Positions 24-60,818 of a DNA stretch of 64,000 nt are shown here, in pieces; within the stretch, counting starts at the first letter, position 1, and each line of letters starts with the position of its first letter. The translations under genes were made by a program, and so were the position numbers. The stretch is from a phage, in assembly GCA_012813795.1 (NCBI GenBank), contig GCA_012813795.1_4087.1. One strand, 5' to 3'. A model generated the notes under the pieces. It worked only from the letters and a program-made list of their open reading frames with translations, was not told the DNA's origin and did not search any database.

Positions 24-434
24 TTAATTGTAGTATGTTCTACCAACAGTAATGTGATATTTGAAATATTTGGACGGTAAGCCAAGTTCACTACGAATTT
101 GTGTAATGAAGTCATCTTCAAACTCAATGATAAAGAATGACCCTGGCTTCTTATTGTCTTTTACTTCTTCGATGAAAGGATTGAACTTAATCTTCACTTT
201 CATACCATCGTACTTTTTCCAGTACTCTGGATTTGGTGGCACTTCACCTCGAACAATACTGACGTGTGCTCCCCATTGTGGGTCTTTAACATCAATGTGT
301 AGATCAGTTCTGATGAAGTACTGGTAGTATCTAACCAACTGTAATGGAAGTTGCAGTACTAACCAGAAATCCTTCTTCTTTTTCATAGTCCCACGGTCTG
401 GATCATACACCAGAGTTCCTTCCATTTCAATCAT
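24..434 (-). CDS. 2H phosphoesterase family protein (LigT-like)
   Basis: 136 aa; two H-x-[TS]-x motifs (HVSIV and HITVG) about 70 aa apart, typical of the 2H superfamily; ATG at 432-434. Confidence 0.55.
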   Translation of the reverse strand: MIEMEGTLVYDPDRGTMKKKKDFWLVLQLPLQLVRYYQYFIRTDLHIDVKDPQWGAHVSIVRGEVPPNPEYWKKYDGMKVKIKFNPFIEEVKDNKKPGSFFIIEFEDDFITQIRSELGLPSKYFKYHITVGRTYYN

Positions 435-441
435 ATTTTAC

Positions 442-645
442 CTATAAATGTACATATATGTTTTTATTTTCAATACGAACATATGTTTCCAAAACATCTT
501 TTGGAATTTTATTACTTGTTTTGTACCATGTAGTATTATCTACTAAAACAAAAGTTTCACCGTCAGTTTCACCAAATGTACTCAATGCATAAATGAAGTA
601 ATTTGGTGCTGCACTACAATAGATATCAGCATTAATTTCAATCAT
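442..645 (-). CDS. hypothetical protein
   Basis: 67-aa track ORF, packed between minus-strand neighbours. Confidence 0.45.
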   Translation of the reverse strand: MIEINADIYCSAAPNYFIYALSTFGETDGETFVLVDNTTWYKTSNKIPKDVLETYVRIENKNIYVHL

Positions 646-648
646 ATT

Positions 649-783
649 TTACACCATTACAAAGCTTAATACAACTAATGTAATAAACACACCGACAATC
701 GCGGTCATTTCTGGATTTGCATCATAAGTGTAGCGAATACACTTAACAAAATCCGATCCAAATTTCTTTAATCCTTTCATCAT
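649..783 (-). CDS. small hydrophobic protein (44 aa)
   Basis: Below track cutoff; MMKGLKKFGSDFVKCIRYTYDANPEMTAIVGVFITLVVLSFVMV; AAGGA-like RBS about 7 nt upstream; C-terminal TM segment. Confidence 0.35.
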   Translation of the reverse strand: MMKGLKKFGSDFVKCIRYTYDANPEMTAIVGVFITLVVLSFVMV

Positions 784-832
784 TTTTTTCCTTTTTTAAC
801 ATCAAACATAAAGACTTCTACGTATACCACGG

Positions 833-1219
833 TCAATTCCCCAAATCTGTTAAGATATCTAAGATTATATCATGAATTTCGAAATCGGTGTAAGAAAAGT
901 TTCGTGTGAGCTTATCATTAACTTCATCAATGGACAACATTTGATATCCGACTAGTACACCCTGAACACGACTGCGTTTAACTCTTGAGTACAGGTAAGA
1001 AGGTACTGAAATACGAGTCCCAAGAAATGTAGTACCTTCCCCATATAACTCTACTGTATATCGGTTCTTACTTTTGTTTCTTACATTAACATAGCATTGT
1101 GGATAACGTCTAGGTGTAATACTTTCATACAACATAGATGCAAAACTATCTTTAGAATTATAATACTTTTTGACGATCTCTGTAAATCGTTTAGTATGTC
1201 TCTTTTTCCATCTCATCAT
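833..1219 (-). CDS. hypothetical protein
   Basis: 128-aa track ORF; 4-nt overlap with upstream gene. Confidence 0.5.
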   Translation of the reverse strand: MMRWKKRHTKRFTEIVKKYYNSKDSFASMLYESITPRRYPQCYVNVRNKSKNRYTVELYGEGTTFLGTRISVPSYLYSRVKRSRVQGVLVGYQMLSIDEVNDKLTRNFSYTDFEIHDIILDILTDLGN

Positions 1220-1677
1220 TTAGATCCTATAAAAACTAATGGAAAATATATCTCATCATAAGTTGAGAGTGATTTACATTTCTGAATCATCTCATAATGG
1301 ATAATTTCAGATTCAATATTAGGATATGGAACAGGTGTAGGTGTGGATGGTTGTAATGCATAAAATGTATCTAATCTATTATATTCACCCATTGGTGTAT
1401 TACTCACATCTGGATATCTAACTTCGATCATAACCTGACAATTCGTTGTGTCATCCCACACATAAAATAACTCTTGTGCTACGCATTGGACTGAATAATT
1501 ACCATCAAATGCACTAAACATCGCACCGTCATAGTATCGGAATTGCGGATTTGTATACCCAAGAATTTCAGCTAATATATTAGCTTTGTGTTCATAAAAA
1601 TCCATTTTCAATAGATTAGTATCTTTACAAACATCAACCAAACGATACAAGCATTGCAATATTTCACGATTAATCAT
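1216..1677 (-). CDS. hypothetical protein
   Basis: 153-aa track ORF. Confidence 0.5.
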   Translation of the reverse strand: MINREILQCLYRLVDVCKDTNLLKMDFYEHKANILAEILGYTNPQFRYYDGAMFSAFDGNYSVQCVAQELFYVWDDTTNCQVMIEVRYPDVSNTPMGEYNRLDTFYALQPSTPTPVPYPNIESEIIHYEMIQKCKSLSTYDEIYFPLVFIGSK

Positions 1678-9378: not shown

Positions 9379-10620
9379 TTATTTTTTACCATACCACTGC
9401 ATTTCTCGAATATCGATTAGAACTTTTGCAGCTAGTTGAATGTTTGGTTTCTTTGGTAGAACTGACTTAGGATACACCACATTGCGGATATAGTCAACCT
9501 TTTCATTGAAATAATCCATGACTTCTTCATATTTCCATTTGCCGTTGCGGATATCCATTAGCATATCAGCATCAGGACGTTTAACAAGGATAATACCGCT
9601 TTGTAATGCTTCTTCGGCACTATTTAGCAGCCTGATCGTATGCATAGCATGTTTTAAATCGAAGCCGTGCTGTGATTCCATAAGAGCACGTTTAGCATTA
9701 CGATTCTCTTTCCATTTGTGATAACTTTTACGGTTCTCACTGTTCTCACTGTATTCTTTTTCATTGAATTTGACAATGAGTTCAGGTCGCACTTTCAATT
9801 CTTCAGTACTGCGTTCTTTGTTGAAATAACGTAAAGAACCATCAGCGTTAATTGTACTTTCATTAGGATTGATAATAACACCAAAGATATTTTCACCGTA
9901 ATGAATTAATTCGTACCCATTGTTATAATCCAATAAGTTGAAATCACGGTCTAGTACTTTATCAGTACTGTAATTATGTACTAAACGTACAAAATGATAC
10001 TGTTTCAACGGATGAGTTGAAACTAACTGCAATGAAGTATCACGCATGTATTTTTCAAAATCAATTTTCTTAGCATTAAATGGATGTAGTTTAGAAGTAT
10101 CTAAACGTTCTACCAAATAGTGTGGGAAATTTTCATACATCCATGCTAAAGTTTCATCTACTGGAAAATCTTCTAAGATTTCATTTAGACGTTTTTCAGC
10201 AATACGCTCTTTATCCATCCACCCGTGGTGATTAGACATACGCTTAACCTGATTATATGCATAACCGGTATAAGAGAATGCAATCTTAGAACTAAGTAAT
10301 TGTTGATTGAATGTACGTAGATAATCATAGATTTCAGTACTTTCTACGATGTGTTCAGGATCGACCCATAGTGATTCAAGAATATTTGGGTTAGCCTCTG
10401 TATATAGTCTTAAGTACTGGTTTAGTTCATAGAATTTAGTATCTTCTTCTCTTGAATCAGAAACTTCCTTTACATTATAAAAAGGCGTAAGGATGAATTC
10501 TTTGTTAGCAAGAAAAATACCACGATAATCCGTATCACTTTCAGGTGTACTGGTTCCATACGCTTGTGAACCTGCTAAGTGCTTCACAATTGTTTGTTCA
10601 AGAAATTTGTTATTATTCAT
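9379..10620 (-). CDS. Pol-beta-superfamily nucleotidyltransferase (RlaP-like)
   Basis: 413 aa; N-terminal HLAGSQAYG...SDTDYRGIF matches the GS...[DE]x[DE] nucleotidyltransferase signature. Confidence 0.5.
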   Translation of the reverse strand: MNNNKFLEQTIVKHLAGSQAYGTSTPESDTDYRGIFLANKEFILTPFYNVKEVSDSREEDTKFYELNQYLRLYTEANPNILESLWVDPEHIVESTEIYDYLRTFNQQLLSSKIAFSYTGYAYNQVKRMSNHHGWMDKERIAEKRLNEILEDFPVDETLAWMYENFPHYLVERLDTSKLHPFNAKKIDFEKYMRDTSLQLVSTHPLKQYHFVRLVHNYSTDKVLDRDFNLLDYNNGYELIHYGENIFGVIINPNESTINADGSLRYFNKERSTEELKVRPELIVKFNEKEYSENSENRKSYHKWKENRNAKRALMESQHGFDLKHAMHTIRLLNSAEEALQSGIILVKRPDADMLMDIRNGKWKYEEVMDYFNEKVDYIRNVVYPKSVLPKKPNIQLAAKVLIDIREMQWYGKK

Positions 10621-11021: not shown

Positions 11022-11525
11022 TTAACTCCTGTAATATTGTAAGTATTCGTTCTTTGCATCATCCAATTCTTTTTGTTCCTGAATTTTCTTGTCGATATCT
11101 TTCACGTTAGTAATACTGTTATATAGTGCGTGAAGTACAAGAAAATCAGATACAGAAGTTGAAAAATCCTTCCACCCACCCGACATTTTAATACGCACAC
11201 GTATATCACGTCTGTCCATCCAGAACATGAACCCTCGATTCCCACGTAAATCATTAATCATATACACTTTAAAACAAGAATCTCGTGTGCTGCTTTCTCG
11301 TCTTTCAAAATCTACATGAATACTGAACAAGTTTTTTGAACAGTACTTACAAAATGCATAGATAACAGGATCACATTTTGAAAGAAGATATTTGTTTTGA
11401 ATAATTTCTCTGCGATCTTTGTCTGATTTAATATTAGGTACTAATAAAGTACTTTTGTTTAAAATCAACGCAACTAAGTACTGAAGAATATCATTATCTT
11501 TTACTTTATGTTTACCGAAGATCAT
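11022..11525 (-). CDS. hypothetical protein, tandem paralog 3 of 3
   Basis: 167 aa; shares the L...S.L......D.DR..I..K..LS motif block with the two upstream genes. Confidence 0.55.
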   Translation of the reverse strand: MIFGKHKVKDNDILQYLVALILNKSTLLVPNIKSDKDRREIIQNKYLLSKCDPVIYAFCKYCSKNLFSIHVDFERRESSTRDSCFKVYMINDLRGNRGFMFWMDRRDIRVRIKMSGGWKDFSTSVSDFLVLHALYNSITNVKDIDKKIQEQKELDDAKNEYLQYYRS

Positions 11526-12025
11526 TAGTATAATCCTTTTAGTTTATTAAATTCATTAAGTTTATGCTGCTCGTATTCTAACTTCTTGTACTTTGTTTCA
11601 AGCTCACGAAGTGCAACGAGTAAATGAAACAAAAACATTTGTTCATGTTTAGGTAGAATATTCGCATCTCCGTTAATATAAACAAATGTATGTTTTTCAT
11701 CATAATCTTTAGATGAATATGTTACTGCATTAAAATCAACCTTAGTTTCGGTATCAAACAATTTTACACGGTTGATATGATTACCATATATGAATACTGG
11801 TTCATATAACCAACGTTCACCGTATGGTTCTTTAACTAGGTCAGTGATTAGTTTCATTAGAGAATGAGAACTTAACATTTCTTTAATTTTAAGTATAGTT
11901 CTACGATCTTCATCAGTACTGATAATTTCTTTTAAAGAATAGCTTTTCATCAGTACTGGAAGAATTAATGTACACCACTCTACATTTTCTCTTTTGTGAT
12001 CATTATTTTTCTTTTTGAAAAACAT
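11525..12025 (-). CDS. hypothetical protein, tandem paralog 2 of 3
   Basis: 166 aa; paralogous to 12035..12595 and 11022..11525. Confidence 0.55.
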   Translation of the reverse strand: MFFKKKNNDHKRENVEWCTLILPVLMKSYSLKEIISTDEDRRTILKIKEMLSSHSLMKLITDLVKEPYGERWLYEPVFIYGNHINRVKLFDTETKVDFNAVTYSSKDYDEKHTFVYINGDANILPKHEQMFLFHLLVALRELETKYKKLEYEQHKLNEFNKLKGLY

Positions 12026-12034
12026 AGTAACCTC

Positions 12035-12595
12035 TTAATATAAATCAGTTATTCTCTTTTGGATTTTGAATTTACGCTGTTCTTCTTCAATTTGTGATAA
12101 CTTTTCTTTAATATCTTCAGCACCAATAATCACATGGAACAGGATCATTAACTCATCATCATCAAGCATATCATAATGAACACCGAAGTTTGAAGAAACA
12201 ACACATGACAAATCTCTTGATTGAATGATAGTTTCTTCGGTTCTGTGTTCAATCCCTGCTGGTGTATACTCAACCTTAAACATGATTGCATTTTTTAAAT
12301 CGCGTAGTATGAATTCTTCATCACCACCCCACAGTTTTTTTTGAACCATAGACCAACGATCACTGAATGGATTTTGGGTGTATTCTGCCAGTAATCCATA
12401 TAGTTTATGCTTACTTAACTTGTACTTAAGTTCGATAAGTGATTTACGATCATTATCGGTTTTCACAAAATCTTTAAGAGTTACACTTTTGCATAGCAAA
12501 CGAACTACTAGTGTATTCTGAAAGTGCTGCTCTTTTTCTTTTAAACGTTGTAACTGTGCGGGTGACAGTGGTGGTCTAAAACGTGATTGTACCAT
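12035..12595 (-). CDS. hypothetical protein, tandem paralog 1 of 3
   Basis: 186 aa; paralogous block around KSVTLKDFVKTDNDRKSLIELKYKLSKHKL. Confidence 0.55.
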   Translation of the reverse strand: MVQSRFRPPLSPAQLQRLKEKEQHFQNTLVVRLLCKSVTLKDFVKTDNDRKSLIELKYKLSKHKLYGLLAEYTQNPFSDRWSMVQKKLWGGDEEFILRDLKNAIMFKVEYTPAGIEHRTEETIIQSRDLSCVVSSNFGVHYDMLDDDELMILFHVIIGAEDIKEKLSQIEEEQRKFKIQKRITDLY

Positions 12596-12663: not shown

Positions 12664-15405
12664 TTAACTCCAACGAGTACCAGATTGTGATGGTAACCCA
12701 GAACTAGCTGGGATAGCAGAACCACGATTGTAGGTACTTGGGCGGTATAGCAAGAATCTGGACACTTTTTCAGACTCGATTGATGCAATACCATTAGCAT
12801 CAGTTACTATCTTACCAATGTAGGTTGATGTCATAGTTTCTGATAATTGATATAGTGATATCTGATACGAAGCTGTAGATGTACCTCTATCCATAACCGC
12901 ATATATGTAGAATGTTGAATTATCTGGTGTAGTACTTATGGTAGATAAGTCTATCATAGTCGGTGGTATCTTTGCAAACTTTCCACCCAAGAAAACTGGT
13001 ACTTCTTGTGAAAAGTACACGTTGAACCCTTGTGCCACATCCTGTGAAGCAACAACTAAGTACTGTGATATCGTTTCATTACCAGATATTAGTTTATCCA
13101 TATCTGCTTCAGTAGTACCACATACAGCAAAAACTGATTTAGTTTGATAATCGTTTTTGTTCATTTGGTAATATCCAAACCCAATCCCTGGAATTGTACC
13201 TATATCAAATTGTGCGTTTGAAATATAAGTTGTTTCCATATATCGTTGACTTGAAATAATACCATTTTTCACTTTAGCAATCATGTTAGGATAACGAGTC
13301 CATCCTGGGGTATCAATGCCATATAAAATGTTCACACCTAAGTAGTTAAAACCACTAAACTTAGCAACCGTCATACCAGCCCAACGTTTGATCATTTCAT
13401 TTGGTGAAATTTGGAATGTATTCGTGATTGATGTATATCTTGCTGTATCAACACTAATACCACGTAAAATTATAGTACCACTTGTACCCAGTGCACTACA
13501 TGATATTTCGGAAAAAATAATATAACACACGTTGGTAGTACCGTTTAGTGCAGAAGTGACTGCAATAGATTTAGAATATGTAGTATCAGGTACATAATAA
13601 AAAACAGTTTTATGTTCAGTTATTCCAGTCAATCCAGCTTTAGCAACGGCATTATAACCTATACCTGATAATGTAGTTCCTGAAATTTCATATCTATCAC
13701 TGTTAAAGTCCATTGTAACAGGGTCGAATTTTCCATAAGCTGGTTTATCGATACCTTCTATTAAAGAAGATCCATAAGTGCTGACATTTCCATTGGCATC
13801 AACCAATGTTACCATACCTGCATATTTGTAATCAGTACTTAAATAGTGTCTATTACCTGATGGTGCAAAACCATTCATTGTGGTATTTTGTTCCAAGTTT
13901 TTATAACTATAAGTTGGATTCTCACCTATTTCAGTAAAAACTGTACTATCATAACCATAAGAAATTCCATCAGCAGTACCAGAACATGCAACAAGTATCT
14001 TACGTTTATCAACGAAACGAACACCTATTAAGTTTTCACCTACAGGTGAACCATAAACGGGCATTACTTCTACGCGTTTTAAATTACTACCAGTACGTGT
14101 TTTAGCAACCCAACTATCATAAGGTGTACCAGAAACTTTGTATGTTTGTACTGCATAGGTCGGCATGGATGACCATCTTGCTTTGGTAGTGAAAACAAAA
14201 CCATCAGAAGTTTGACAGATTGAACCATAGTTACCAAGTGCACCATCATAAAACCCTGTAAAGTTTTCCATATTGATTGAAAACGGGTTTCTCACTGTTA
14301 TACTGCCAGTTGATGCATTAGCTGATACTCTGATTGGACCACGTTCAGAACCGTCAAGTGTCATTGTTTTAGTACTGATATCATATGTAAAGCTAATGCC
14401 AAGTGAATATACACTAGATGTTTTTGTTTCAGTAAAGACACGAAACCCTGGATATATCGCTACTCTTATTTTTGTACCATCAGGGCTAAGAACTGCTTGG
14501 GTATTAAACGTGTAATGTTGCCAGTCATCGATTTTGGAAACCCCATTATCATATGCTATTAGTGCATCACCACCTGAACCCAATACTGAATAGCTATCAT
14601 AAACGCGAATATTATTTGAAGCTGAATATGTTACATCTCGTATAGTTCTTCCTGAATAACCACTAATTTGTGTTACTGTCGAAACTGAACCAGTATTAAA
14701 TGCAGTTAAAGGTACTGTGTATATGATAAATGCACAACCGCGAACACTATTAAGAACACTTGAATCCCTACACCATATATAAACTGAATCATTTACGATG
14801 TGTGCATAGATTGGTTTATTTGTTATTGCTGTTTTTGGAATTCTACAGTGTTTATGAGCAGATTCATTTAATGTTTCATTTGTTAATGTAAGGTAGTATG
14901 ATGCTCTATCAGTTGATTCCCAAAATAGTAATTCATATGCATTTGACCCATAAAATTCATAAATGTAATCAGTGCTTGGTAGCACAGAAGGTCTATACAT
15001 CGTGTTGGTTGTAATTATATTATCTTGAGTTAGTGTTTCTATATCTCTTATATTTTTAATATAAGCATAATAGTAACCATACGAACTTCCATTTGTACCT
15101 GCACGTAAAATTACACCAGTACCATCATTTTCAATGATACAAGGTTGCATTATTTTTGCAAATGAAAAGGAAGAAGCACCTTCAAATGTACCGTTAATAC
15201 TCATCGGTAGGTAATCTTGATCACCTACCCTTGAAACTGGAAGCATATCAAACATCTGATCTACTTCCGCTTTGTCATAATATTGGTAAGTGATTTTACC
15301 AGCAGAATCAGCAGGGAATCCATTAAAGGAACGTAATGCATACTTTCCATTAATTTTCAAATTCCCTAGTATTTCTGCGTTTCCTATAATTCGTCTCGAA
15401 GCCAT
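12664..15405 (-). CDS. tail-fiber-like large structural protein (paralog B)
   Basis: 913 aa from the ATG with AAGGA RBS (track ORF extends to 15432); S/T/G/N/Y-rich; N- and C-terminal similarity to 16017..18716; ends ...SSGLPSQSGTRWS. Confidence 0.6.
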   Translation of the reverse strand: MASRRIIGNAEILGNLKINGKYALRSFNGFPADSAGKITYQYYDKAEVDQMFDMLPVSRVGDQDYLPMSINGTFEGASSFSFAKIMQPCIIENDGTGVILRAGTNGSSYGYYYAYIKNIRDIETLTQDNIITTNTMYRPSVLPSTDYIYEFYGSNAYELLFWESTDRASYYLTLTNETLNESAHKHCRIPKTAITNKPIYAHIVNDSVYIWCRDSSVLNSVRGCAFIIYTVPLTAFNTGSVSTVTQISGYSGRTIRDVTYSASNNIRVYDSYSVLGSGGDALIAYDNGVSKIDDWQHYTFNTQAVLSPDGTKIRVAIYPGFRVFTETKTSSVYSLGISFTYDISTKTMTLDGSERGPIRVSANASTGSITVRNPFSINMENFTGFYDGALGNYGSICQTSDGFVFTTKARWSSMPTYAVQTYKVSGTPYDSWVAKTRTGSNLKRVEVMPVYGSPVGENLIGVRFVDKRKILVACSGTADGISYGYDSTVFTEIGENPTYSYKNLEQNTTMNGFAPSGNRHYLSTDYKYAGMVTLVDANGNVSTYGSSLIEGIDKPAYGKFDPVTMDFNSDRYEISGTTLSGIGYNAVAKAGLTGITEHKTVFYYVPDTTYSKSIAVTSALNGTTNVCYIIFSEISCSALGTSGTIILRGISVDTARYTSITNTFQISPNEMIKRWAGMTVAKFSGFNYLGVNILYGIDTPGWTRYPNMIAKVKNGIISSQRYMETTYISNAQFDIGTIPGIGFGYYQMNKNDYQTKSVFAVCGTTEADMDKLISGNETISQYLVVASQDVAQGFNVYFSQEVPVFLGGKFAKIPPTMIDLSTISTTPDNSTFYIYAVMDRGTSTASYQISLYQLSETMTSTYIGKIVTDANGIASIESEKVSRFLLYRPSTYNRGSAIPASSGLPSQSGTRWS

Positions 15406-15415
15406 ATATATTCCT

Positions 15416-16006: not shown

Positions 16007-16016
16007 ATTATCTCCA

Positions 16017-41439: not shown

Positions 41440-41442
41440 ATC

Positions 41443-48208: not shown

Positions 48209-49000
48209 TTAGATTTCGAATACCAATTTAGGATTGTAATCGAAATTCTCACAAGCTCCACTATAAGATTCGTAACCTCTTGGATTACAAATGATACGTG
48301 TCTTACCGATGTGGTAATCAAAGCTACTATGAACATGACCATGAATCCAAACATCAGCACCCAAATCTTCAATGTACTGATCCATGTCTGAACAGTAACA
48401 ACCATTCAGTGAATCGTTTTTATATTTTGGTGAAACACTTTGAAAACTCGGTGCGTGATGGGTAATCACGATGACCTTGAAATCATTATCCTGCATTAAG
48501 CGTACTGTGTCAACTGAATTTTTGATAAATTGTTTATCTTTGTAATGCATGAACTCAGTATCTTCTGGTGTCAGTTTCTTACGCCAAGGCTCGGATGTTG
48601 TTCCATGACGGATGTGTTTGTAATCGTTCATCTTCTGACGAGCATCAAACTTCGTCATGGAATTACCTTTGTCAAAGTCTGTCCACAGAGTACTACCAAC
48701 GAGCAAAACACCATCCAGCCATACAAATTTGTTTTGCAAAAAGATGAAATTAGGAAACTCATCTTGCATATCGGACAGTACTTGATGCGTTTTGTAAATG
48801 TTCGAACCGTAGTACTCGTGATTACCAGGAACCAGTACTACATTCTTGAACTGCTTACACAGTGATTCGATACCAGTACGATAACGACTACGTTTAACTT
48901 CATCGAAGTCCCCAGCAATGATCAGTACTGTGTCACTGTAATCACCACTATGGAGGTAATCAGTGCCACCGTGTACATCAGATGTTACGACAAATTTCAT
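48209..49000 (-). CDS. calcineurin-like metallophosphoesterase
   Basis: Motifs SDVHG, GDF, GNHE, HGHVH; start set to the ATG (MKFVVTSDVHG) with GGAGG RBS. Confidence 0.8.
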   Translation of the reverse strand: MKFVVTSDVHGGTDYLHSGDYSDTVLIIAGDFDEVKRSRYRTGIESLCKQFKNVVLVPGNHEYYGSNIYKTHQVLSDMQDEFPNFIFLQNKFVWLDGVLLVGSTLWTDFDKGNSMTKFDARQKMNDYKHIRHGTTSEPWRKKLTPEDTEFMHYKDKQFIKNSVDTVRLMQDNDFKVIVITHHAPSFQSVSPKYKNDSLNGCYCSDMDQYIEDLGADVWIHGHVHSSFDYHIGKTRIICNPRGYESYSGACENFDYNPKLVFEI

Positions 49001-49019
49001 AATTACCTCCAATAAATGT

Positions 49020-50438
49020 TTAGCCAAGTGATTCAATAATACTGTTTGAGAAGACCTCAACTGCACTATCACGAATTTCTAAGATACGAGTATAATCGTC
49101 ACAAGTGTTTTTGTCAAATCTAAATTCAATAAACACTGGTAAAAATAGTGATGGCTCACCAGTACGCTTGTCGAATACAATGTCATTACACTCAACTGTA
49201 ACCACTTTACCAATAAGTTCTTGCATTCTTTCCCAAATGGTTTTAAATGTCCATTCAGCATCTTTTTCGCGGATTCCTGTTCCTACGCTTACTTTTAGTG
49301 TACCACAAGCACTTTCCAGTTGTAAAGAACCAAGCATACCTTTACGCTTACCTTCACCTTCATTGAAACCAACAATACGCAAGTCCAGTTGCATTTTCAA
49401 TTTCATTTTCAACTGCTTAGGAGAAGTATGTGATTTCCAGATACCATCTTCACATTTCAGTACTGAACCTTCTTCACCTGAACTCATGAGTTCAGAGTTG
49501 TAAGCAAAGGCTTCTTTGAGATCCTTCACCTTACGATATCCAACCATACGCACGAATTCACTACCTAATGCATTGATTGCACCTTCAAGAATCTCGCGAC
49601 GTTCCTTACGTTTTACATCCCAGATACCATCACAATATGCATCGTATGGCACTACATCCCAGAGAACGAATACTGTACGCATTGCTTCGTTTTGGGTGAT
49701 AGTATCTTTACCTGCTTTCTGAATGATGCCGTTACCAGTTGTACGTGGAAGAATAGTTTCCCCATCAGTATCCAGTACTAAACCCTCGCCCATAAAGACT
49801 ACACCACTACTGAAACGTTCATCTGTACTTTGGATATGATGAGCAAGGCCAGCCATTTCAGCATCACGACAACCGAGGAAGTCGTAAATCTTACCATTAC
49901 GGGAAGTGGATGTTAATGATGCATTGATAACAACGTGGTTCAAGTACTGACCATCCATCTTAACTTCAGCAACGGCATAACCATAATCTTTGAAGTTGAT
50001 GTTCTTAGCAGTTTTCTTGTCAATCAATGAACAACGCATATAAGGTTCATCTTTAATGAAGCCTTTACCGAATACATCATTACAGTTCTTTTCCTGAATA
50101 CCACAATCAAGGTTCTTCGTGAGCATTTTACGGAGAACTTCCTGGTCATCTTCAGGAACAGCACCCAGTACTGAAGCAATGAAATCACGCCCTGTATTAC
50201 CCGTCACACCACGCTTATAGATGCATTCTAGCTTATCAATAGCTTCATCTAACGTCATATGTTGATACACGTCAGCAGCGTCTGGTAGCTTCTTATAGCC
50301 ACTTACGATAGTAGGGTCTAGCGTATATTTCAGTACTTTTTTGAGTGTTTCATTGTTTTTGTTTTCTTCAAGGATTGCTTTCTTACCAAGTGTACTTGAA
50401 GTCTTTTTGATTTGTTCCAGAATTGCTAAAATGCTCAT
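49020..50438 (-). CDS. 30: ATP-dependent DNA ligase
   Basis: 472 aa; adenylation motif I KxDG in AEVKMDGQY; size comparable to T4 gp30. Confidence 0.85.
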   Translation of the reverse strand: MSILAILEQIKKTSSTLGKKAILEENKNNETLKKVLKYTLDPTIVSGYKKLPDAADVYQHMTLDEAIDKLECIYKRGVTGNTGRDFIASVLGAVPEDDQEVLRKMLTKNLDCGIQEKNCNDVFGKGFIKDEPYMRCSLIDKKTAKNINFKDYGYAVAEVKMDGQYLNHVVINASLTSTSRNGKIYDFLGCRDAEMAGLAHHIQSTDERFSSGVVFMGEGLVLDTDGETILPRTTGNGIIQKAGKDTITQNEAMRTVFVLWDVVPYDAYCDGIWDVKRKERREILEGAINALGSEFVRMVGYRKVKDLKEAFAYNSELMSSGEEGSVLKCEDGIWKSHTSPKQLKMKLKMQLDLRIVGFNEGEGKRKGMLGSLQLESACGTLKVSVGTGIREKDAEWTFKTIWERMQELIGKVVTVECNDIVFDKRTGEPSLFLPVFIEFRFDKNTCDDYTRILEIRDSAVEVFSNSIIESLG

Positions 50439-50447: not shown

Positions 50448-51647
50448 TTATAGATAATAGGTTCCATAAAAAATAGGACAGTCAGTGCTAATATGAACCA
50501 TAGGTTTTTTATTAGATTCTGATGTATTATTACTGTATCGTTTGGTTGGTGGATAGAAAGGTGAATTATAACCACGCCATGTATTGAAAGATGTATGTTT
50601 ATCGATATCAACATCCATTGACATTACACCATTCGCATCAACTTCTACTGGGTATCCGCAGTATTTTTCAAAATCACCCTTGTACGCTATAGAATAATCA
50701 TGGCGATAATATCCATAGGAATTTCTGCTGTTGTTATCTGAAATACCAAAGAATACACGATATTTTTGACCATTCTGTTCAGTCATGAATAATACGTTTT
50801 CATTGAAACGACCATTAACAAGAACGTCTTTAGTGATTTCAGTGTATTTTACTTTCATATCAGTACTTTTAAATGATTTAGTACTGATCAGTACTGGTCT
50901 ATTGCATTCACCTAATGCGTTCTCAGTTCGCATTCGGTACGTATTGAAATACGCATTTGCTTTAACAATTTCAGCTTCCATTGTTGTTTTAACGTTATGG
51001 AGTGCTCTGGGTGTTAATTCGTATCGGTCAAGGCTTGCACATACACCATATGTACCATCAGCGATACAATACACCATATGATAGAAAGAACTTTTGTTAG
51101 GTAAAGAGAATTCTTTAGTTTTCTTCAAACAAAGAGTATGAACGCGACCACAATAGTAGTACTCTTTTTTGTTATAAAGGAATCCATCACCAACTTTCAA
51201 CTCACCAACAACGCATTTACGTTCTTCAGCTTTCTCTTGCTTCTCTTGCATCTTAGCAAATGTTTTTGTATTACCATTAATGAGTTCAAGATTATTATTA
51301 AAGAACATAGCATCTTGGAATACACCATTAACGATATCATTGTGTGTGATTAAGTCCAGCATATTGTTTGCAGTGATATTGAACTCAAATCCTTCTGGGT
51401 GACGGCAAACGAAATAAGTATCTCGACCACTGTGAATCAATTTCTGAACAATAGCGAAACCTTTTTTCGGTTCATTGTCGAGTGTAAGTGACGGCATATT
51501 ATTGGTTCTTGCCCAGTACTCAACACGTTCTTTCTTATTTTCAAATGCTTTAGTGTGAGTTTTAGTTGCGTCGATAATAAATCCGTCAACCTGATCTCCA
51601 CTAACAAAACGTCTTGCGACGAAAATCTTTTCAGGAAAATTCATCAA
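50448..51647 (-). CDS. hypothetical protein
   Basis: 399-aa track ORF. Confidence 0.55.
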   Translation of the reverse strand: MMNFPEKIFVARRFVSGDQVDGFIIDATKTHTKAFENKKERVEYWARTNNMPSLTLDNEPKKGFAIVQKLIHSGRDTYFVCRHPEGFEFNITANNMLDLITHNDIVNGVFQDAMFFNNNLELINGNTKTFAKMQEKQEKAEERKCVVGELKVGDGFLYNKKEYYYCGRVHTLCLKKTKEFSLPNKSSFYHMVYCIADGTYGVCASLDRYELTPRALHNVKTTMEAEIVKANAYFNTYRMRTENALGECNRPVLISTKSFKSTDMKVKYTEITKDVLVNGRFNENVLFMTEQNGQKYRVFFGISDNNSRNSYGYYRHDYSIAYKGDFEKYCGYPVEVDANGVMSMDVDIDKHTSFNTWRGYNSPFYPPTKRYSNNTSESNKKPMVHISTDCPIFYGTYYL

Positions 51648-52063
51648 ATAGTCCTCATTGTACTCATAGCTTTTAGTGTTTCGTACATATGACCGTATTT
51701 GGAAAATAGCTGTAAATCAGACATTGGGTCGTTAGTACGCATCAGTGCCATGTCATCAATCATTTCTTCAGTGCATAGTACTGCTACACTAGTGAGGGTA
51801 TCGTTCAAACCTGGTTCATTGAATTTAGCAAATGGAACCTTGCCCTGTTTGGATAGATTCTCGTAATGAGTGGTTAATTTATCTTGGTTGCCAGCATTGA
51901 GAATTACAATAGTTTCGTGCTCATTATACCATTCATCGATTAGAGTACTGAATACTGTACCTTCATATTCTTTGACGAGTTTAATACCAGCATGAAATGC
52001 CTGAACGCCAGCCTGAACACCCTGACAGTACATGTTTGTTAAGCAATATAGTTTCACTTCCAT
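51644..52063 (-). CDS. hypothetical protein
   Basis: 139-aa track ORF. Confidence 0.5.
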   Translation of the reverse strand: MEVKLYCLTNMYCQGVQAGVQAFHAGIKLVKEYEGTVFSTLIDEWYNEHETIVILNAGNQDKLTTHYENLSKQGKVPFAKFNEPGLNDTLTSVAVLCTEEMIDDMALMRTNDPMSDLQLFSKYGHMYETLKAMSTMRTI

Positions 52064-52574: not shown

Positions 52575-53318
52575 TTACCTCTTGAATCGACTAAATGAAT
52601 ATTCGTCTTTTTCTTTACGCAAATAACACATCTTACCACCTTGAGGGGTAGCAATAGTCAAATCACCAGTAAGAAACTGACTGTCAATCCAGATACGGTT
52701 ACCATAAATGAGGGGATCAAACACGGCAGTATGCCCACTAAGTACATAATCTACGTTGGTAATACGTGATGCATTAAAGACGTTGTTGGCTTTACAGAAA
52801 TCAAATGTCTTTCTGTCCCATAGGCATGACTCAATTGTATCACTGGACATTGATTTTGTCCCAGTAATGAACTTATTCCAGTCAGTGTGCTTAAGGTCTA
52901 CACTTGCATGTACGAGGCCAATCTTGAGTCCTCTGTGATTGATTTGGATAATCATAGGTAGCTGGTTCAAGTACTGACGGAAGAATTCCACTCCTGATAC
53001 ACCAACTTCTTCCAGGAACTTATCGCCCCCATTCTGTGTCCAGCAATGATACCAGTCACGATGAGTTGCAGAATCAACACACATCGATTCATGATTGCCC
53101 ATGATCATATATCGATTCTCAGCGAATAAAAACTCAAACAAAAGGTGAGCACTTTGCTCACCTCTGTCAATTAAATCGCCTAAACTGAATACATAATCTT
53201 CAGGAGTAATACCAAATTCTTTCTTGGTATGTTCCCATAGTTTTGCATTACCGTGAATGTCTCCTACTATATACAAATCTTTTTCATCAGGAACTGTTAC
53301 TTCTAAGAAATGTTTCAT
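52575..53318 (-). CDS. PPP-family Ser/Thr protein phosphatase (lambda-PPase/ApaH-like)
   Basis: 247 aa; motifs GDIHG, GDLIDRG, GNHE in canonical order; ATG verified. Confidence 0.8.
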   Translation of the reverse strand: MKHFLEVTVPDEKDLYIVGDIHGNAKLWEHTKKEFGITPEDYVFSLGDLIDRGEQSAHLLFEFLFAENRYMIMGNHESMCVDSATHRDWYHCWTQNGGDKFLEEVGVSGVEFFRQYLNQLPMIIQINHRGLKIGLVHASVDLKHTDWNKFITGTKSMSSDTIESCLWDRKTFDFCKANNVFNASRITNVDYVLSGHTAVFDPLIYGNRIWIDSQFLTGDLTIATPQGGKMCYLRKEKDEYSFSRFKR

Positions 53319-57351: not shown

Positions 57352-57353
57352 GT

Positions 57354-57614: not shown

Positions 57615-57637
57615 TATATCACCTAAATTAAAAGAAA

Positions 57638-57657
57638 AGGGATCAGTACTGATCCCT
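57638..57657 (-). terminator. intrinsic terminator (minus strand) after pseT
   Basis: Perfect palindrome AGGGATCAGTACTGATCCCT (with CAGTACTG at its centre), followed on the minus strand by TTTTCTTTT. Confidence 0.5.
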
Positions 57658-57666
57658 TTGTAATAA

Positions 57667-58599
57667 TCAAAATAGTCCAGGTTCCACCTGAAATACTTTC
57701 AAGCCTAGTAGCTTACGCCACATGAATACAACTTGTGATCTATCATCAAATACTTTCTTAACATCGTAATGATTAACAACGTTATTCATATACAACTCGA
57801 ATTTGACAACATCATCAGGACGTTTATCATCGATAGCTCGCATTAACAATACATCGTAGGGAATGCCCCAATTCTTAAGCCACTGTTCAGTATCAGCACG
57901 ACACCCTTCAGTACGCCCACTCATGACGATTACCTTACGCTTATGGAAAACAGCCTCAGCAATGACAGACAGAATTACTTCTTCATCTGGTGTATCCTGA
58001 AGGACAGTACTTTCATCAAACGGGTTACGTCCCCACTTATGAGCAAGAGTACCGTCGATATCAACAATGATAGCAGCTTCACGTGCATTACCATAGTAAC
58101 CAATGTGCATCGCCTTACTATAATAGTACGTATTTGCCATAGTGTCAATGATTTCATCTTGTACTGAACGCTCACGCTGGAGGTTATATTTCTTACAAAG
58201 TTTTACGAACTCTTTAATCTTAAAGAATTCATGAACATCTGCACCACGGTCTTCATTAGGTACAAAATCATCATAGAAGTTCTTTTCTTTGTAATCATAA
58301 CCATTATCTTTAGCCCACATTTTCCATTGATCACGGAAATGTGGTTTAAGGTTCGTATCGGATACGATGATATTCCAACTATTCTCCGCTGCTGAATTTG
58401 CTGCACTGAACTGTAAATTAGTTACGTACTTCTCATTAGCATCGTTGAATTTGTAAGCATCATGTGACCCAGCCATAGATTCACGAATATCATCACGGTT
58501 GATGTTGATAGTCTTGGATTTGGCTTTTTTAATCTCTTGCACTGCCCATGTAGTTTTACCACACCCTGGCAATCCAACTGTTAGTGTAATAGTTGGCAT
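57667..58599 (-). CDS. pseT: polynucleotide 5'-kinase/3'-phosphatase
   Basis: 310 aa; N-terminal P-loop GLPGCGKTT and C-terminal HAD-type phosphatase motif IVDIDGTLA, the T4 Pnk architecture; ATG verified. Confidence 0.85.
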   Translation of the reverse strand: MPTITLTVGLPGCGKTTWAVQEIKKAKSKTININRDDIRESMAGSHDAYKFNDANEKYVTNLQFSAANSAAENSWNIIVSDTNLKPHFRDQWKMWAKDNGYDYKEKNFYDDFVPNEDRGADVHEFFKIKEFVKLCKKYNLQRERSVQDEIIDTMANTYYYSKAMHIGYYGNAREAAIIVDIDGTLAHKWGRNPFDESTVLQDTPDEEVILSVIAEAVFHKRKVIVMSGRTEGCRADTEQWLKNWGIPYDVLLMRAIDDKRPDDVVKFELYMNNVVNHYDVKKVFDDRSQVVFMWRKLLGLKVFQVEPGLF

Positions 58600-58911
58600 T
58601 TAATCCTCAATAAATTTCACATTCTTTAGATTGTACCACGAAAAACGTTCATGACGTGTGTTGTGTCCTATAGTTACTTCTACATAGCACTCGTCAGTAA
58701 TGTGATGAGTAACTACATGAAATTTGACATTAACATCACTAATGATAGTTTCGAACCATGTTTTAGTGTTGTAATCCCAGCATTCAACTTTCTTACCAAT
58801 GAGTGATTTCTTGTATTGTGTAATCATATCATGAACAATTTCAGAAATAGTATTAGTTAATTCAATTTCTGCATTCATTAAATTATGAAGTTCTTTTAAT
58901 GCTTTATTCAT
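58600..58911 (-). CDS. small protein, K-[YL]-[IV]-G-[KR]-x-V family
   Basis: 103 aa; contains KSLIGKKVECW. Confidence 0.5.
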   Translation of the reverse strand: MNKALKELHNLMNAEIELTNTISEIVHDMITQYKKSLIGKKVECWDYNTKTWFETIISDVNVKFHVVTHHITDECYVEVTIGHNTRHERFSWYNLKNVKFIED

Positions 58912-59183
58912 TAGATTACCTCAATAATATCATCAATTGAGATATCAATACAATTATCGACAATGATATTCAATGTAAAATCATCATCTACATATACATT
59001 AGTGATTTTACCATAAACATTCATCCCATCATAAGATGATTTATAACGTACTCTTTTGTTAATATATTTTGCACGTAGAGTATTACTCTCACGGTACAAT
59101 ATATCCGTCAAACATTCTGATAGTACTTTATAATATAACAAATCACTTGAATGATTGTTTTTCATTGTATTTCCCAACTCCAA
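58911..59183 (-). CDS. small protein, K-[YL]-[IV]-G-[KR]-x-V family
   Basis: 90 aa; contains AKYINKRVRYK. Confidence 0.5.
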   Translation of the reverse strand: MELGNTMKNNHSSDLLYYKVLSECLTDILYRESNTLRAKYINKRVRYKSSYDGMNVYGKITNVYVDDDFTLNIIVDNCIDISIDDIIEVI

Positions 59184-59379
59184 ATCGCTTGGAGATTTTT
59201 ACAAGTACAGCTTCATCACAACGAATACTAGCAGTGTTATTGGATGAACTGTACTTTAAGGGGGTCCACTGTAATTGAGATTCTTCAAGGAACTTGATAC
59301 ATCTGAAGTAATCTTTCAGAGAAAGAAACTTAACCACTGACATATCCTGAACAATACTATGCTGAACTTCAACTTTCAT
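59143..59379 (-). CDS. hypothetical small protein
   Basis: 78-aa track ORF. Confidence 0.45.
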   Translation of the reverse strand: MKVEVQHSIVQDMSVVKFLSLKDYFRCIKFLEESQLQWTPLKYSSSNNTASIRCDEAVLVKISKRFGVGKYNEKQSFK

Positions 59380-59388
59380 ATGAACTCC

Positions 59389-59646
59389 TTATAGTGGATC
59401 GAATTTATTTTCACGTTTCGATGTATAGCGAGTTACATCATGTATTCTCGGCTTAACATCCTTTGGTTTCCTTTTCTTCTTATATTCAGTACTACTACAC
59501 CCAAAAGTATTCTCGATTCGCTTCTTACTAATCTTCACACCTTTCATTGAGCGTTTGTGCTGTAAATCATCGATTTCTTGTTGTATTTTCCTGAACTCAG
59601 TAGGAGAAAGGGAACCATCATTTTTATACTTAGGTTTAGCCATCAC
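59389..59646 (-). CDS. small basic protein
   Basis: 85 aa, K/R-rich. Confidence 0.45.
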   Translation of the reverse strand: MMAKPKYKNDGSLSPTEFRKIQQEIDDLQHKRSMKGVKISKKRIENTFGCSSTEYKKKRKPKDVKPRIHDVTRYTSKRENKFDPL

Positions 59647-59672
59647 TTCTCCTTGTGCTGGGCTAGTTAGTA

Positions 59673-60818
59673 CTAAAAATCCTTTAGTACATCTTTGTAG
59701 TACTTTAGTAAAGTCTCTTTATAATCGACACTTTTGCCATTGTACAACGCAAAGGCCAAGCCTTGTCGGTTCAATACATTAGGTAAATCTTGCTGAACCT
59801 TTTGAGCGAATTCCTTTCGCTCTAAGTGCTTGTATGCATGGACGAAGCTTTCTACCTCATCTTGTAAAGCATTATAGCACGAAAATACCAATTGTTCCAT
59901 TCTTAATATCTTATCCATAGCATATGTATCAGTACTGAACAATTGTTTTAAGTCATCACTTGCACCAGTCAGTACAGCTTCATATAAATGGGAATCAATA
60001 AGAATGGAATCTTTTGTTAAATGCAAAGAGCAATACCAGTCAGTTTTGATTTTGCACATTGTACCATCTTTCATTATACACACAAAACCTTCAATGTCAA
60101 GCATAGAACGTACTTTATCGATTGACTCTTTAAATGTAGGCATAATCGGGAATGTATGATGAATGTCATTACCTGTCATATTAGTACTGTACTGTGAAAG
60201 GCATGGAAACTTATCACGTAGTGCTTTACCGCATAACAACTCACCACTAATACGATGACGAACGTTAAGAACAAATAACTGTTCCACCTGATATGGTAAC
60301 ACAATTCGATACTCTGGGCTTGTGTATTCCAGATTCACAGTATAGCCCAAACGGTCTGCTTCATCAATGTATTGATAGAGATTTTGGTTCTCGTTCAAAA
60401 GTCGAGTACTGTTAATAGCATGGTCAGAAGATAACGAAGTGTGTGATTTACAACGGATTTCACCATCGTTATCACGGAATGTGCTGATGATAGAACCATC
60501 TAGCTTAGGCATTACAACCGCAATATCATCACAGGTAGTATCAGTACTGAACATTGTGTACGGGTTTTCATATGCATTGAAGAACTTTTTCATTGTACGT
60601 GCTGCACAACGAATCATAATTCCGTTGGAATCGATTTCCCACATAGAACCACGAGTTTCTAGTGCATTTTTATTTGTGAAATCGGTATAAGATGCCAGAC
60701 GATAGGTGAATACACGGTATAAACCACCACCAGGGCTTGTATGATCTATATAGAAAAATGCATCATTAGATTCACATAGTTCCATTAAATCATTGTATAT
60801 TTCTCGCAAATTACTCAT
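59673..60818 (-). CDS. rnlA: RNA ligase 1 (T4 Rnl1-like)
   Basis: 381 aa; nucleotidyltransferase motif I KxDG in VMPKLDGSIIS about 100 aa from the N-terminus; size matches T4 Rnl1; ATG verified. Confidence 0.8.
   Translation of the reverse strand: MSNLREIYNDLMELCESNDAFFYIDHTSPGGGLYRVFTYRLASYTDFTNKNALETRGSMWEIDSNGIMIRCAARTMKKFFNAYENPYTMFSTDTTCDDIAVVMPKLDGSIISTFRDNDGEIRCKSHTSLSSDHAINSTRLLNENQNLYQYIDEADRLGYTVNLEYTSPEYRIVLPYQVEQLFVLNVRHRISGELLCGKALRDKFPCLSQYSTNMTGNDIHHTFPIMPTFKESIDKVRSMLDIEGFVCIMKDGTMCKIKTDWYCSLHLTKDSILIDSHLYEAVLTGASDDLKQLFSTDTYAMDKILRMEQLVFSCYNALQDEVESFVHAYKHLERKEFAQKVQQDLPNVLNRQGLAFALYNGKSVDYKETLLKYYKDVLKDF

What the first reader, a model, noticed from the sequence alone, without database searches (positions are those of the whole stretch)
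24..60818. Distributed RNA-repair toolkit: Pnk, Rnl1, RlaP-like nucleotidyltransferase and 2H phosphoesterase
Polynucleotide kinase/phosphatase (57667-58599) and RNA ligase 1 (59673-60818) are the classical T4 pair that heals tRNA cut by host anticodon nucleases. The window also encodes a Pol-beta nucleotidyltransferase of the type linked to RNA repair (9379-10620) and a LigT-like 2H phosphoesterase (24-434). Together they suggest broader RNA end-healing capacity than the T4 pair alone.
Basis: partly seen in the sequence, partly recalled or inferred. Interest (0 to 1): 0.45.

Follow-up and report, generated by a model that had tools for sequence, protein, structure and literature searches.

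The report
Standard jumbo-phage RNA repair gene set
This stretch of a giant E. coli phage carries four intact enzymes of known RNA-repair families, a gene set already described for jumbo phages, so it is ordinary; the only open question is what a small, untested two-histidine phosphoesterase linked to tRNA genes does.

Summary
All four ORFs exist at the stated coordinates and keep their catalytic residues: Pnkp (57667-58599), Rnl1 (59673-60818), an RlaP nucleotidyltransferase (9379-10620) and a minimal 2H phosphoesterase (24-434). The window is not T4. It is an Asteriusvirus jumbo coliphage, 97.9% identical to phage A4 over a 4.2-kb test segment.

Rnl1, four small ORFs and Pnkp form one tight, terminator-ended unit. 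RlaP and 2H are unlinked, about 49 and 57 kb away. The set is therefore a theme, not a single system.

- T4-type phages already encode an RlaP (NrdC.11).
- T4 Pnkp resolves 2',3'-cyclic phosphates by itself.
- The 2H protein is not LigT family. It belongs to a 2H-SAK-like family whose nearest solved structure is the anti-CBASS nuclease Acb1.

Genomic context still favours a tRNA role for the 2H protein. In relatives it sits beside a CCA-adding enzyme that lacks the HD domain, YqeY, an Rnl2-type ligase and Macro/NUDIX genes. In 8 of 11 divergent lineages it is embedded in tRNA gene arrays, and once it is fused to YqeY.

The repertoire was catalogued for jumbo phages in 2021 (PMC7824862). Verdict: already known, low interest.

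The parts
59673..60818 (-). RNA ligase 1 (T4 RnlA/gp63 family), 381 aa; first gene of the Rnl1-to-Pnkp unit
   Evidence: Pfam RNA_lig_T4_1 and T4_Rnl1_C. NCBIfam TIGR02308 284.7 bits, above the 242.25 cutoff. E 8e-56 to T4 Rnl1. Lys105 nucleophile and motifs I, III, IV and V are invariant in A3.
58600..59646 (-). Four small ORFs (58600-58911, 58911-59183, 59143-59379, 59389-59646) packed between Rnl1 and Pnkp; function unknown
   Evidence: ORF list shows gaps of 26 nt or less, or overlaps. No Pfam hits. Annotated as hypothetical in phage A4.
57667..58599 (-). Bifunctional polynucleotide 5'-kinase / 3'-phosphatase (T4 Pnkp family), 310 aa
   Evidence: Pfam HAD_PNKP 2.7e-42 and AAA_33 4.1e-13. 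E 1e-38 to T4 Pnkp 1LTQ, with the P-loop, D35/R38 and DxDxT phosphatase residues conserved.
57636..57659 (-). Intrinsic-terminator-like hairpin (10-bp stem plus T-run) immediately after the Pnkp stop codon
   Evidence: Consensus scan. No minus-strand terminator-like site lies between Rnl1 and Pnkp.
9379..10620 (-). RlaP-family Pol-beta nucleotidyltransferase, 413 aa, with an insertion of about 60 aa (roughly aa 137-198) specific to the jumbo-phage clade
   Evidence: PF10127 64.1 bits; phrog_388 1.3e-73. Invariant GS...DxD and EEDTK; the insertion is visible in A2. Homologous to T4-type NrdC.11. In Vibrio phage D69 the homologue lies within 4 kb of CCA-adding enzyme, Thg1 and Rnl1 genes.
24..434 (-). 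Minimal stand-alone 2H phosphoesterase, 136 aa (2H-SAK-like family, phrog_12204). Motifs H57-V-S59 and H127-I-T129, with Arg at +5 after each His
51644..52063 (-).
   Evidence: Pfam PTH2 21.9 bits, cutoff 23. NCBIfam Pth2 19.7 bits over the same region. phrog_3668 'hydrolase' 2.3e-41. [quoted passage not shown]

Best explanation
The window comes from an Asteriusvirus jumbo coliphage. It carries the usual jumbo-phage set of RNA-repair enzymes, arranged as three unlinked modules.

(a) An Rnl1, four small ORFs and Pnkp form one transcription unit. It works like the T4 pathway. After a host anticodon nuclease cuts a tRNA, Pnkp removes the 2',3'-cyclic phosphate and phosphorylates the 5'-OH, and Rnl1 seals the break. 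Homology and catalytic residues are shown; activity is inferred.

(b) A separate RlaP nucleotidyltransferase can add one or two nucleotides to an RNA 3'-OH. This restores a nucleotide excised by RloC-type nucleases before ligation. Family membership is shown. Biochemistry is known only for the Pseudomonas homologues, and the role here is inferred.

(c) A separate minimal 2H phosphoesterase most likely hydrolyses 2',3'-cyclic phosphate ends on tRNA or tRNA fragments. A plausible job is to prepare 3' ends for the phage CCA-adding enzyme encoded 4 kb away, which lacks the HD phosphohydrolase domain of E. coli Cca. The fold, the catalytic tetrad and the tRNA-centred context are shown. The substrate and the partnership with the CCA enzyme are inferred.

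The four genes share a theme and are not a single co-regulated system.
For: Identity of the phage.

Intact enzymes.

Operon structure of Rnl1 to Pnkp: tight spacing, and a terminator only after Pnkp.

RlaP:
- It adds 1-2 NMP to RNA 3'-OH and is needed to restore function of over-damaged tRNA (PMC12776372).
- Its distribution in phages (1580 records) mirrors that of Rnl1 (1616 records) genus by genus.
- Homologues sit beside CCA-adding enzyme, Thg1 and Rnl1 genes in Vibrio phage D69, and beside a CCA-adding enzyme in Cronobacter phage EspYZU14.

2H protein:
- All 18 homologues hit only the 2H-SAK model.
- The His/Ser-Thr tetrad is conserved in 151/151, 150/151, 146/146 and 146/146 representatives. 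The Arg at +5 after the second His matches the phosphate-binding HxTxxR motif of ThpR (PMC4201822).
- In 17 enterobacterial-type loci the 2H gene lies in a conserved block. An Rnl2-type ligase and DUF2828-vWA lie upstream in most of them but not in the Asteriusvirus or RaK2 loci; lysozyme, CCA-adding enzyme, NUDIX and Macro follow, with YqeY in about 10 loci.
- In 8 of 11 divergent lineages it is embedded in co-directional tRNA arrays, with the nearest tRNA 35-1150 nt away.
- One homologue is fused to a YqeY/GatB-tail domain.
- The phage CCA enzyme matches the E. coli Cca model only over positions 1-202 of 409 and has no HD domain.

The whole repertoire was described for jumbo phages in PMC7824862.
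Against: - No gene in the window links RlaP or 2H physically to Rnl1/Pnkp. No Rnl1, Pnkp or RlaP lies within 10 kb of the 2H gene in any of 39 loci.
- The window has no tRNA genes and no Rfam hit.
- The 2H model's best structural match is Acb1, an immune-signal nuclease.
- The window protein itself scores below the Pfam gathering threshold.
- The context evidence partly reflects inherited synteny among related jumbo phages, so the lineages are not fully independent.
- T4 Pnkp already heals RNA>p, so a separate cyclic phosphodiesterase is not obviously required.
- No activity was or could be measured here.
Confidence: 0.68

Rival explanations
1. The 2H protein is an immune-evasion nuclease in the manner of Acb1 or the viral 2'-5' phosphodiesterases. 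It would degrade host cyclic-oligonucleotide or oligoadenylate defence signals and would not belong to an RNA-repair toolkit.
Against: - No sequence similarity to Acb1: neither the single sequence nor the family profile hits any Acb1 chain in PDB.
- tblastn finds the family in 77 phage records; every listed hit is a jumbo phage and none is a T4-like genome carrying Acb1.
- The protein ends 7 residues after the second HxT, so there is no room for the Acb1 C-terminal lid, residues 145-152.
- The context is consistently tRNA genes, CCA-adding enzyme, YqeY and RNA ligase.
Confidence: 0.14
2. The 2H protein acts on ADP-ribose-1'',2''-cyclic phosphate or another NAD-derived cyclic phosphate. It would work with the nearby Macro and NUDIX proteins in an ADP-ribose clean-up or counter-defence pathway, not on RNA ends.
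Against: - No KptA/Tpt1 source of Appr>p was found in the 40 or so window ORFs scanned. The review places KptA in group 1 and 3 phages only.
- The Macro assignment in A4 is weak, 17.5 bits.
- The tRNA-array embedding and the YqeY fusion are not explained by this reading.
- The linkage is at kilobase scale, not operonic.
Confidence: 0.13
3. The grouping has no functional meaning. Rnl1 serves mainly as the gp63-type tail-fibre attachment catalyst, Pnkp and RlaP act on other nucleic-acid ends, and the four genes merely share broad enzyme classes.
For: PHROG labels the Rnl1 family 'RNA ligase and tail fiber protein attachment catalyst'. RlaP and 2H are tens of kb from Rnl1/Pnkp and are surrounded by unrelated or unknown genes.
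Against: - Rnl1 and Pnkp are co-transcribed with all catalytic residues intact, and the Rnl1-specific C-terminal domain (PF20819) is kept.
- RlaP co-distributes with Rnl1 across about 1600 phage genomes and clusters with tRNA-repair genes elsewhere.
Confidence: 0.05

Closest known systems
Bacteriophage T4 Pnkp (PseT) plus Rnl1 (gp63) tRNA anticodon-loop repair pathway
   Same: Same two enzyme families, same domain architectures and same catalytic residues. The two genes lie close together on one strand.
   Different: The host genome is a 355-kb Asteriusvirus, not a Tevenvirinae phage. The proteins are only about 36-38% identical to their T4-type counterparts. Pnkp has an extra stretch of about 15 aa between the kinase core and the phosphatase domain. 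The T4-K119 position of Rnl1 is His, at a naturally variable column.
RlaP nucleotidyltransferases (PF10127): Pseudomonas PfRlaP/PaRlaP and T4 NrdC.11
   Same: Pfam membership, the GS...DxD plus acidic catalytic signature, and a conserved C-terminal helical region.
   Different: 413 aa, with an insertion of about 60 aa found only in the jumbo-phage clade. Not adjacent to any RNA ligase in this genome. No solved structure is detectable by sequence.
2H-SAK domain (PF22547) and the ThpR/LigT RNA 2',3'-cyclic phosphodiesterases
   Same: 2H fold, two HxS/T motifs, and an Arg at +5 after the second His as in the ThpR HxTxxR motif.
   Different: Only 136 aa and stand-alone, with the second motif at the extreme C-terminus. 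The first motif is HxSxxR, not HxTxxF. There is no hit to LigT-type Pfam models, and the window protein is just under the 2H-SAK threshold.
Phage Acb1 anti-CBASS nuclease (2H fold)
   Same: Best structural neighbour; a small compact viral 2H enzyme with an HxT/HxT-type tetrad.
   Different: No sequence relationship. Absent from T4-like genomes. Lacks the C-terminal lid. Its genomic context is tRNA-centred.
Jumbo-phage RNA-repair and ribosome-rescue repertoire catalogued by Iyer, Anantharaman, Krishnan, Burroughs and Aravind 2021 (PMC7824862)
   Same: Lists exactly these components (Rnl1/Rnl2, PNK-HAD, 2H, RlaP, CCA-adding enzyme, PTH2, PIN-PhoH) and the same proposed roles.
   Different: Nothing substantive. 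Added here: the quantified tRNA-array embedding of the 2H family, the YqeY fusion, and the absence of an HD domain in the neighbouring CCA enzyme.

Membership tests
T4 Pnkp family (PNK-HAD) | N-terminal P-loop polynucleotide kinase with GxxGxGK[ST], Asp35 and Arg38 | tested here: met
   GLPGCGKT and NINRDDIR align with T4 residues 9-16 and 31-38. The Arg126 equivalent is ambiguous by one column (Q141/R142).
T4 Pnkp family (PNK-HAD) | C-terminal DxDxT acylphosphatase domain (D165, D167, R176, R213, D254, D277/D278) | tested here: met
   DIDGT, GR, SGR, DD and DDR all align. HAD_PNKP 2.7e-42 over the full model.
T4 Pnkp family (PNK-HAD) | 5'-kinase and 2',3'-cyclic/3'-phosphatase activity on RNA ends | not testable with these tools
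   Requires an enzyme assay. The activities of T4 Pnkp are described in PMC3592404.
T4 Rnl1 (RnlA) family | Covalent nucleotidyltransferase motifs I (KxDG), III, IV (EG) and V (KxK) | tested here: met
   K105-L-D-G-S, E163, E242-G243 and K255/K257 (A3 numbering, Met excluded) are invariant in A3.
T4 Rnl1 (RnlA) family | Rnl1-specific C-terminal domain | tested here: met
   PF20819 T4_Rnl1_C 7.2e-15, residues 269-367.
T4 Rnl1 (RnlA) family | Score above the curated equivalog cutoff | tested here: met
   TIGR02308 284.7 bits against a cutoff of 242.25.
RlaP (PF10127) | Pfam model above the gathering score | tested here: met
   64.1 bits against 23.
RlaP (PF10127) | Pol-beta catalytic signature: G[GS], DxD and a third acidic residue | tested here: met
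   G17-S18, D29-x-D31 and E59/D60 (full-length numbering) are invariant or nearly so in A2.
RlaP (PF10127) | Gene association with RNA ligases, the basis of the family name | tested here: inconclusive
   The window gene is 49 kb from Rnl1 with no adjacent repair gene. Genome-level co-distribution with Rnl1 and clustering in phage D69 support the association.
RlaP (PF10127) | Addition of 1-2 NMP to an RNA 3'-OH | not testable with these tools
   Shown only for the Pseudomonas enzymes (PMC12776372).
2H phosphoesterase superfamily | Two HxS/T motifs | tested here: met
   H57-V-S59 and H127-I-T129, conserved in at least 150 of 151 representatives where the column is covered.
2H phosphoesterase superfamily | 2H fold | tested here: met
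   [not shown]
2H-SAK (PF22547) | Pfam model above the gathering score | tested here: inconclusive
   The window protein scores 25.1 against 27 and matches only aa 90-134. All 18 homologues match at E up to 1, best 5.7e-10, and most carry the precomputed domain.
LigT/ThpR family | Match to LigT-type models and the extended motifs HxTxxF and HxTxxR | tested here: not met
   No LigT-type Pfam hit for any of 18 members. Motif 1 is HxSxxR; motif 2 does fit HxTxxR.
Acb1 anti-CBASS nucleases | Sequence homology to Acb1 and a C-terminal substrate lid | tested here: not met
   No PDB sequence or profile hit to Acb1 chains. No T4-like genome is hit by tblastn. Only 7 residues follow the second HxT.

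The most novel reading that the evidence does not exclude
The stand-alone minimal 2H family (about 1086 representatives at 50% identity, none characterised) is a dedicated tRNA end-healing cyclic phosphodiesterase. It would supply in trans the phosphohydrolase activity that phage CCA-adding enzymes lack, because they have no HD domain. Together they would form a tRNA 3'-end repair route distinct from the Pnkp/Rnl1 anticodon-loop route. This would explain why the gene is embedded in tRNA arrays and is once fused to a YqeY tRNA-binding domain.
Probability: 0.35. Interest if true: 0.45.

Novelty: already known. Interest (0 to 1): 0.22.

Why it matters
If the set works as inferred, this phage can undo several kinds of host attack on tRNA: a simple anticodon-loop cut, a cut with nucleotide excision, and damage to the 3' end. 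That is relevant to the host range of therapeutic jumbo coliphages on strains carrying PrrC, RloC, colicin-type or HEPN nucleases. The concept and the gene families are already published. The only piece with real research value is the uncharacterised 2H family. It could be tested cheaply with a single 136-aa recombinant protein and defined substrates.

Tried and rejected
- Sequence and profile searches of the 2H and RlaP proteins against PDB gave only chance-level hits for 2H and none for RlaP.
- I tested whether the 2H enzyme heals ends made by self-cleaving ribozymes in phage tRNA arrays. Rfam at gathering threshold over 11 sources, including the window, found only tRNAs. The idea is unsupported.
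- I was concerned that Rnl1 has His where T4 has Lys119, which I recall from memory as an essential residue. That column varies naturally (K, K, K, N, R) among six homologues while all motifs are invariant. Concern dismissed.
- About 40 further window ORFs scanned with Pfam produced no additional RNA-repair family except a weak PTH2 hit.
- The founding RNA-repair comparative-genomics paper (tried as PMC5062991, an id recalled from memory) is not held, so the definition of the SAK 2H domain rests on the Pfam name and on PMC7824862.
- Two literature calls failed on term-length rules. One paper search failed on the limit of four words per term.
- The Rnl2-type ligase that flanks the 2H gene in relatives was sought in Escherichia jumbo phages. 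Escherichia is not among the ten most frequent genera of the 334 matching records, and EJP2 was the only Escherichia record among the 25 sampled rows.


Full report
WHAT THE WINDOW IS. A 4.2-kb segment around the Pnk/Rnl1 genes is 97.9% identical to Escherichia phage A4 (ON286972.1, 355,528 bp, genus Asteriusvirus). It is about 86-88% identical to some 35 other coliphage and Salmonella phage genomes; the 15 listed are 347-386 kb. The window is the reverse complement of roughly A4 71.5-135.5 kb. It is therefore a jumbo phage, not a T4-like phage. GC content is 32-37%, and nearly all genes are on the minus strand.

OBSERVATION. The four ORFs exist exactly as stated.
- Pnkp (57667-58599) has the T4 architecture: a P-loop kinase followed by a DxDxT HAD phosphatase. 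Scores are HAD_PNKP 2.7e-42 and E 1e-38 to T4 Pnkp. Every residue I could align is conserved: K15, S16 (here Thr), D35, R38, D165, D167, R176, R213, D254 and D277/D278. R126 is ambiguous by one column.
- Rnl1 (59673-60818) passes the NCBIfam equivalog cutoff for T4 RnlA, 284.7 bits against 242.25. It has both the catalytic domain and the Rnl1-specific C-terminal domain. It keeps the Lys nucleophile and motifs I, III, IV and V. The residue aligned with T4 Lys119 is His, but that column is naturally variable.
- The nucleotidyltransferase (9379-10620) is a clear RlaP (PF10127, 64.1 bits). G-S...D-x-D and a downstream EEDTK are invariant. An insertion of about 60 aa is restricted to the jumbo-phage clade.

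ARRANGEMENT. Rnl1, four small unknown ORFs and Pnkp are packed with gaps of 26 nt or less, or with overlaps. No minus-strand terminator-like site lies between them. A 10-bp hairpin with a T-run sits immediately after the Pnkp stop codon at 57659-57636. This reads as one transcription unit. RlaP lies 49 kb away, among three tandem paralogues of unknown function and an acyl-carrier-like ORF. The 2H gene is at the extreme left edge of the window, so its downstream neighbours fall outside it. The window has no tRNA gene and no Rfam match. 'Distributed' is thus accurate: this is a thematic set and not a system.

Against an Acb1-type role:
- There is no sequence or profile similarity to Acb1.
- The family occurs in 77 phage records. 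Every listed hit is a jumbo phage (RaK2, K64-1, CBB, GAP32, Bacillus phage G, Atu_ph07 and others) and none is a T4-like genome.
- The protein stops 7 residues after the second HxT, so the Acb1 C-terminal lid cannot exist.
- The Arg five residues after the second His has the spacing of the phosphate-binding HxTxxR motif of E. coli ThpR.

An exhaustive profile search shows the family is large: 1086 representatives at 50% identity, almost always stand-alone proteins of 130-170 aa.

CONTEXT OF THE 2H FAMILY. In two relatives at 50-58% identity the gene lies in a conserved block. The order is an Rnl2-type RNA ligase (PF09414/PHA02142), DUF2828 plus a vWA-like domain, 2H, an unknown gene, lysozyme, an S30AE/HPF-like gene, the CCA-adding enzyme, NUDIX, glutaredoxin and YqeY.

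A local tblastn and ARAGORN census of 39 loci shows two patterns.
- The downstream block (lysozyme, CCA-adding enzyme, NUDIX, Macro) is present in all 17 enterobacterial-type loci that extend far enough. The Asteriusvirus and RaK2 loci lack the ligase and DUF2828 genes upstream.
- In the divergent clade (35-42% identity), 13 of 15 loci carry 6-32 tRNA genes within 10 kb.

After clustering at 70% identity, 8 of 11 divergent lineages have the 2H gene embedded in co-directional tRNA arrays, with the nearest tRNA 35-1150 nt away.

Very distant phages repeat the theme:
- Vibrio phage 2.275.O has tRNA genes upstream and the CCA-adding enzyme 4 kb downstream.
- Atu_ph07 has an annotated 'tRNA amidotransferase' gene, matching the YqeY marker set, 0.4 kb away and a Macro gene 5 kb away.
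- Bacillus phage G has a Macro gene 2.7 kb away.

One homologue, P0156, is a 2H-YqeY fusion.

In phage A4 the 2H gene (A4_527) is followed by lysozyme, an S30AE-like gene, the CCA-adding enzyme 4.2 kb downstream, NUDIX, glutaredoxin and a weak Macro domain. The A4 CCA enzyme is labelled 'multifunctional ... 2'3'-cyclic phosphodiesterase'. Yet it matches the E. coli Cca model only over positions 1-202 of 409, has no HD-domain hit and has no HD dipeptide. The label appears to be transferred.

These data favour a tRNA-directed role. The most economical reading is a 2',3'-cyclic phosphodiesterase that prepares tRNA ends. The recurrent Macro/NUDIX linkage keeps an ADP-ribose cyclic-phosphate role alive, and the structural match keeps an Acb1-like role alive.

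One caveat applies to all the context evidence: much of it may be inherited synteny among related jumbo phages. I had only +/-10 kb per locus and no genome-wide null.

RlaP. The family was named for its linkage to RNA ligase genes. Pseudomonas RlaPs add one or two NMPs to RNA 3'-OH ends and are needed to restore aminoacylation of over-damaged tRNA (PMC12776372). That paper notes that T4 NrdC.11 is an RlaP. I confirmed this on a T4-type phage: PF10127 44.7 bits, and BLASTP E 4e-12 to the window protein with the same GSxxYGTSTPESDxD motif.

RlaP-like sequences occur in 1580 phage records and Rnl1 in 1616, with near-identical genus profiles. In Vibrio phage D69 a full-length homologue lies within 4 kb of a CCA-adding enzyme, Thg1 and Rnl1. 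In Cronobacter phage EspYZU14 one lies 1.8 kb from a CCA-adding enzyme.

COMPARISON WITH WHAT IS KNOWN. The comparative-genomics overview of 224 jumbo phages (PMC7824862) describes this same repertoire and the same proposed roles:
- ATP-grasp RNA ligases Rnl1 and Rnl2;
- PNK-HAD kinase-phosphatases;
- 2H phosphoesterases 'clearing cyclic 2'-3' ends';
- RlaP, 'whose distribution closely mirrors the RNA ligases';
- CCA-adding enzymes, PTH2 and PIN-PhoH.

The window also contains a probable divergent PTH2 (51644-52063) and a PIN-PhoH fusion (28380-29843), which fits the catalogue.

The claim of capacity 'broader than the T4 pair alone' needs three corrections. T4 already has an RlaP. T4 Pnkp itself converts RNA>p to RNA-OH and has 2'-phosphatase activity (PMC3592404). 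The component that is truly additional relative to T4 is this 2H family, together with the CCA-adding enzyme just outside the window.

VERDICT. The set is already known and of low interest (0.22). The residual value lies in the uncharacterised minimal 2H family and its association with tRNA arrays and CCA-adding enzymes. That association is testable with one small recombinant protein.

Noticed in passing
window 30524-31821 (-): A Sir2 gene (31069-31821; PF02146 6.5e-20) and a Nudt16-like NUDIX gene (30524-31072; PF22327 3.4e-19) overlap by 4 nt. This is probably an NAD+/ADP-ribose-related gene pair.
   Followed up: partly
window 28380-29843 (-): A PIN endoribonuclease domain fused to a PhoH ATPase (PIN_4 1.2e-21, PhoH 1e-43). 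It weakly resembles the NCBIfam RNA 5'-3' helicase PhoH2 model. The jumbo-phage review lists this as an RNA-related function.
   Followed up: partly
[not shown]
   Followed up: yes
window 48209-50438 (-) and 52575-53318 (-): A T4 gp30-like ATP-dependent DNA ligase (with a weak RNA_ligase PF09414 hit) lies next to a calcineurin-like metallophosphoesterase. A second, NinI-like metallophosphatase lies 2 kb upstream. I did not test whether either phosphoesterase acts on nucleic-acid ends.
   Followed up: no
window 11022-12595 (-): Three tandem paralogous ORFs of 166-186 aa (phrog_7868/phrog_18641, unknown function) lie just upstream of RlaP, separated from it by a 133-aa ORF.
   Followed up: no
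window 12664-18716 (-): Two paralogous proteins of about 900 aa (phrog_3573, unknown function) flank a 196-aa ORF that matches only their C-terminal end (phrog_26864). None has a Pfam hit.
   Followed up: no
window 33900-43644 (+): This is the only large plus-strand block: four Ig-domain virion structural proteins of 1095, 839, 541 and 733 aa. It is about three times longer than the corresponding block in phage A4. Conversely, A4 has a 3.4-kb tail-fibre insertion next to RlaP that the window lacks. This looks like variation in the host-range module.
   Followed up: partly
window 60073-60100 (-): A perfect sigma-70 consensus (TTGACA, 16 nt, TATAAT; 12 of 12) lies inside the Rnl1 coding sequence, oriented toward the small ORFs and Pnkp. 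The total count of promoter-like sites in the region is not above the shuffled expectation.
   Followed up: no
L006 1087-2199 (phage A4 gene A4_536, about 4 kb beyond the window's left edge): The GenBank product name claims 2',3'-cyclic phosphodiesterase, 2'-nucleotidase and phosphatase activities. The protein has only the nucleotidyltransferase half of E. coli Cca and no HD domain, so the name appears over-transferred.
   Followed up: yes
L003 4222-5814; L005 4234-5748: A DUF2828 plus DUF7788 (vWA-like) protein of about 500-530 aa and an Rnl2-type ligase (PF09414/PHA02142) lie immediately upstream of the 2H gene in RaK2-like relatives. Both are missing from Asteriusvirus. The architecture is reminiscent of Ro60/TROVE; that resemblance is recalled from memory and was not tested.
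   Followed up: partly
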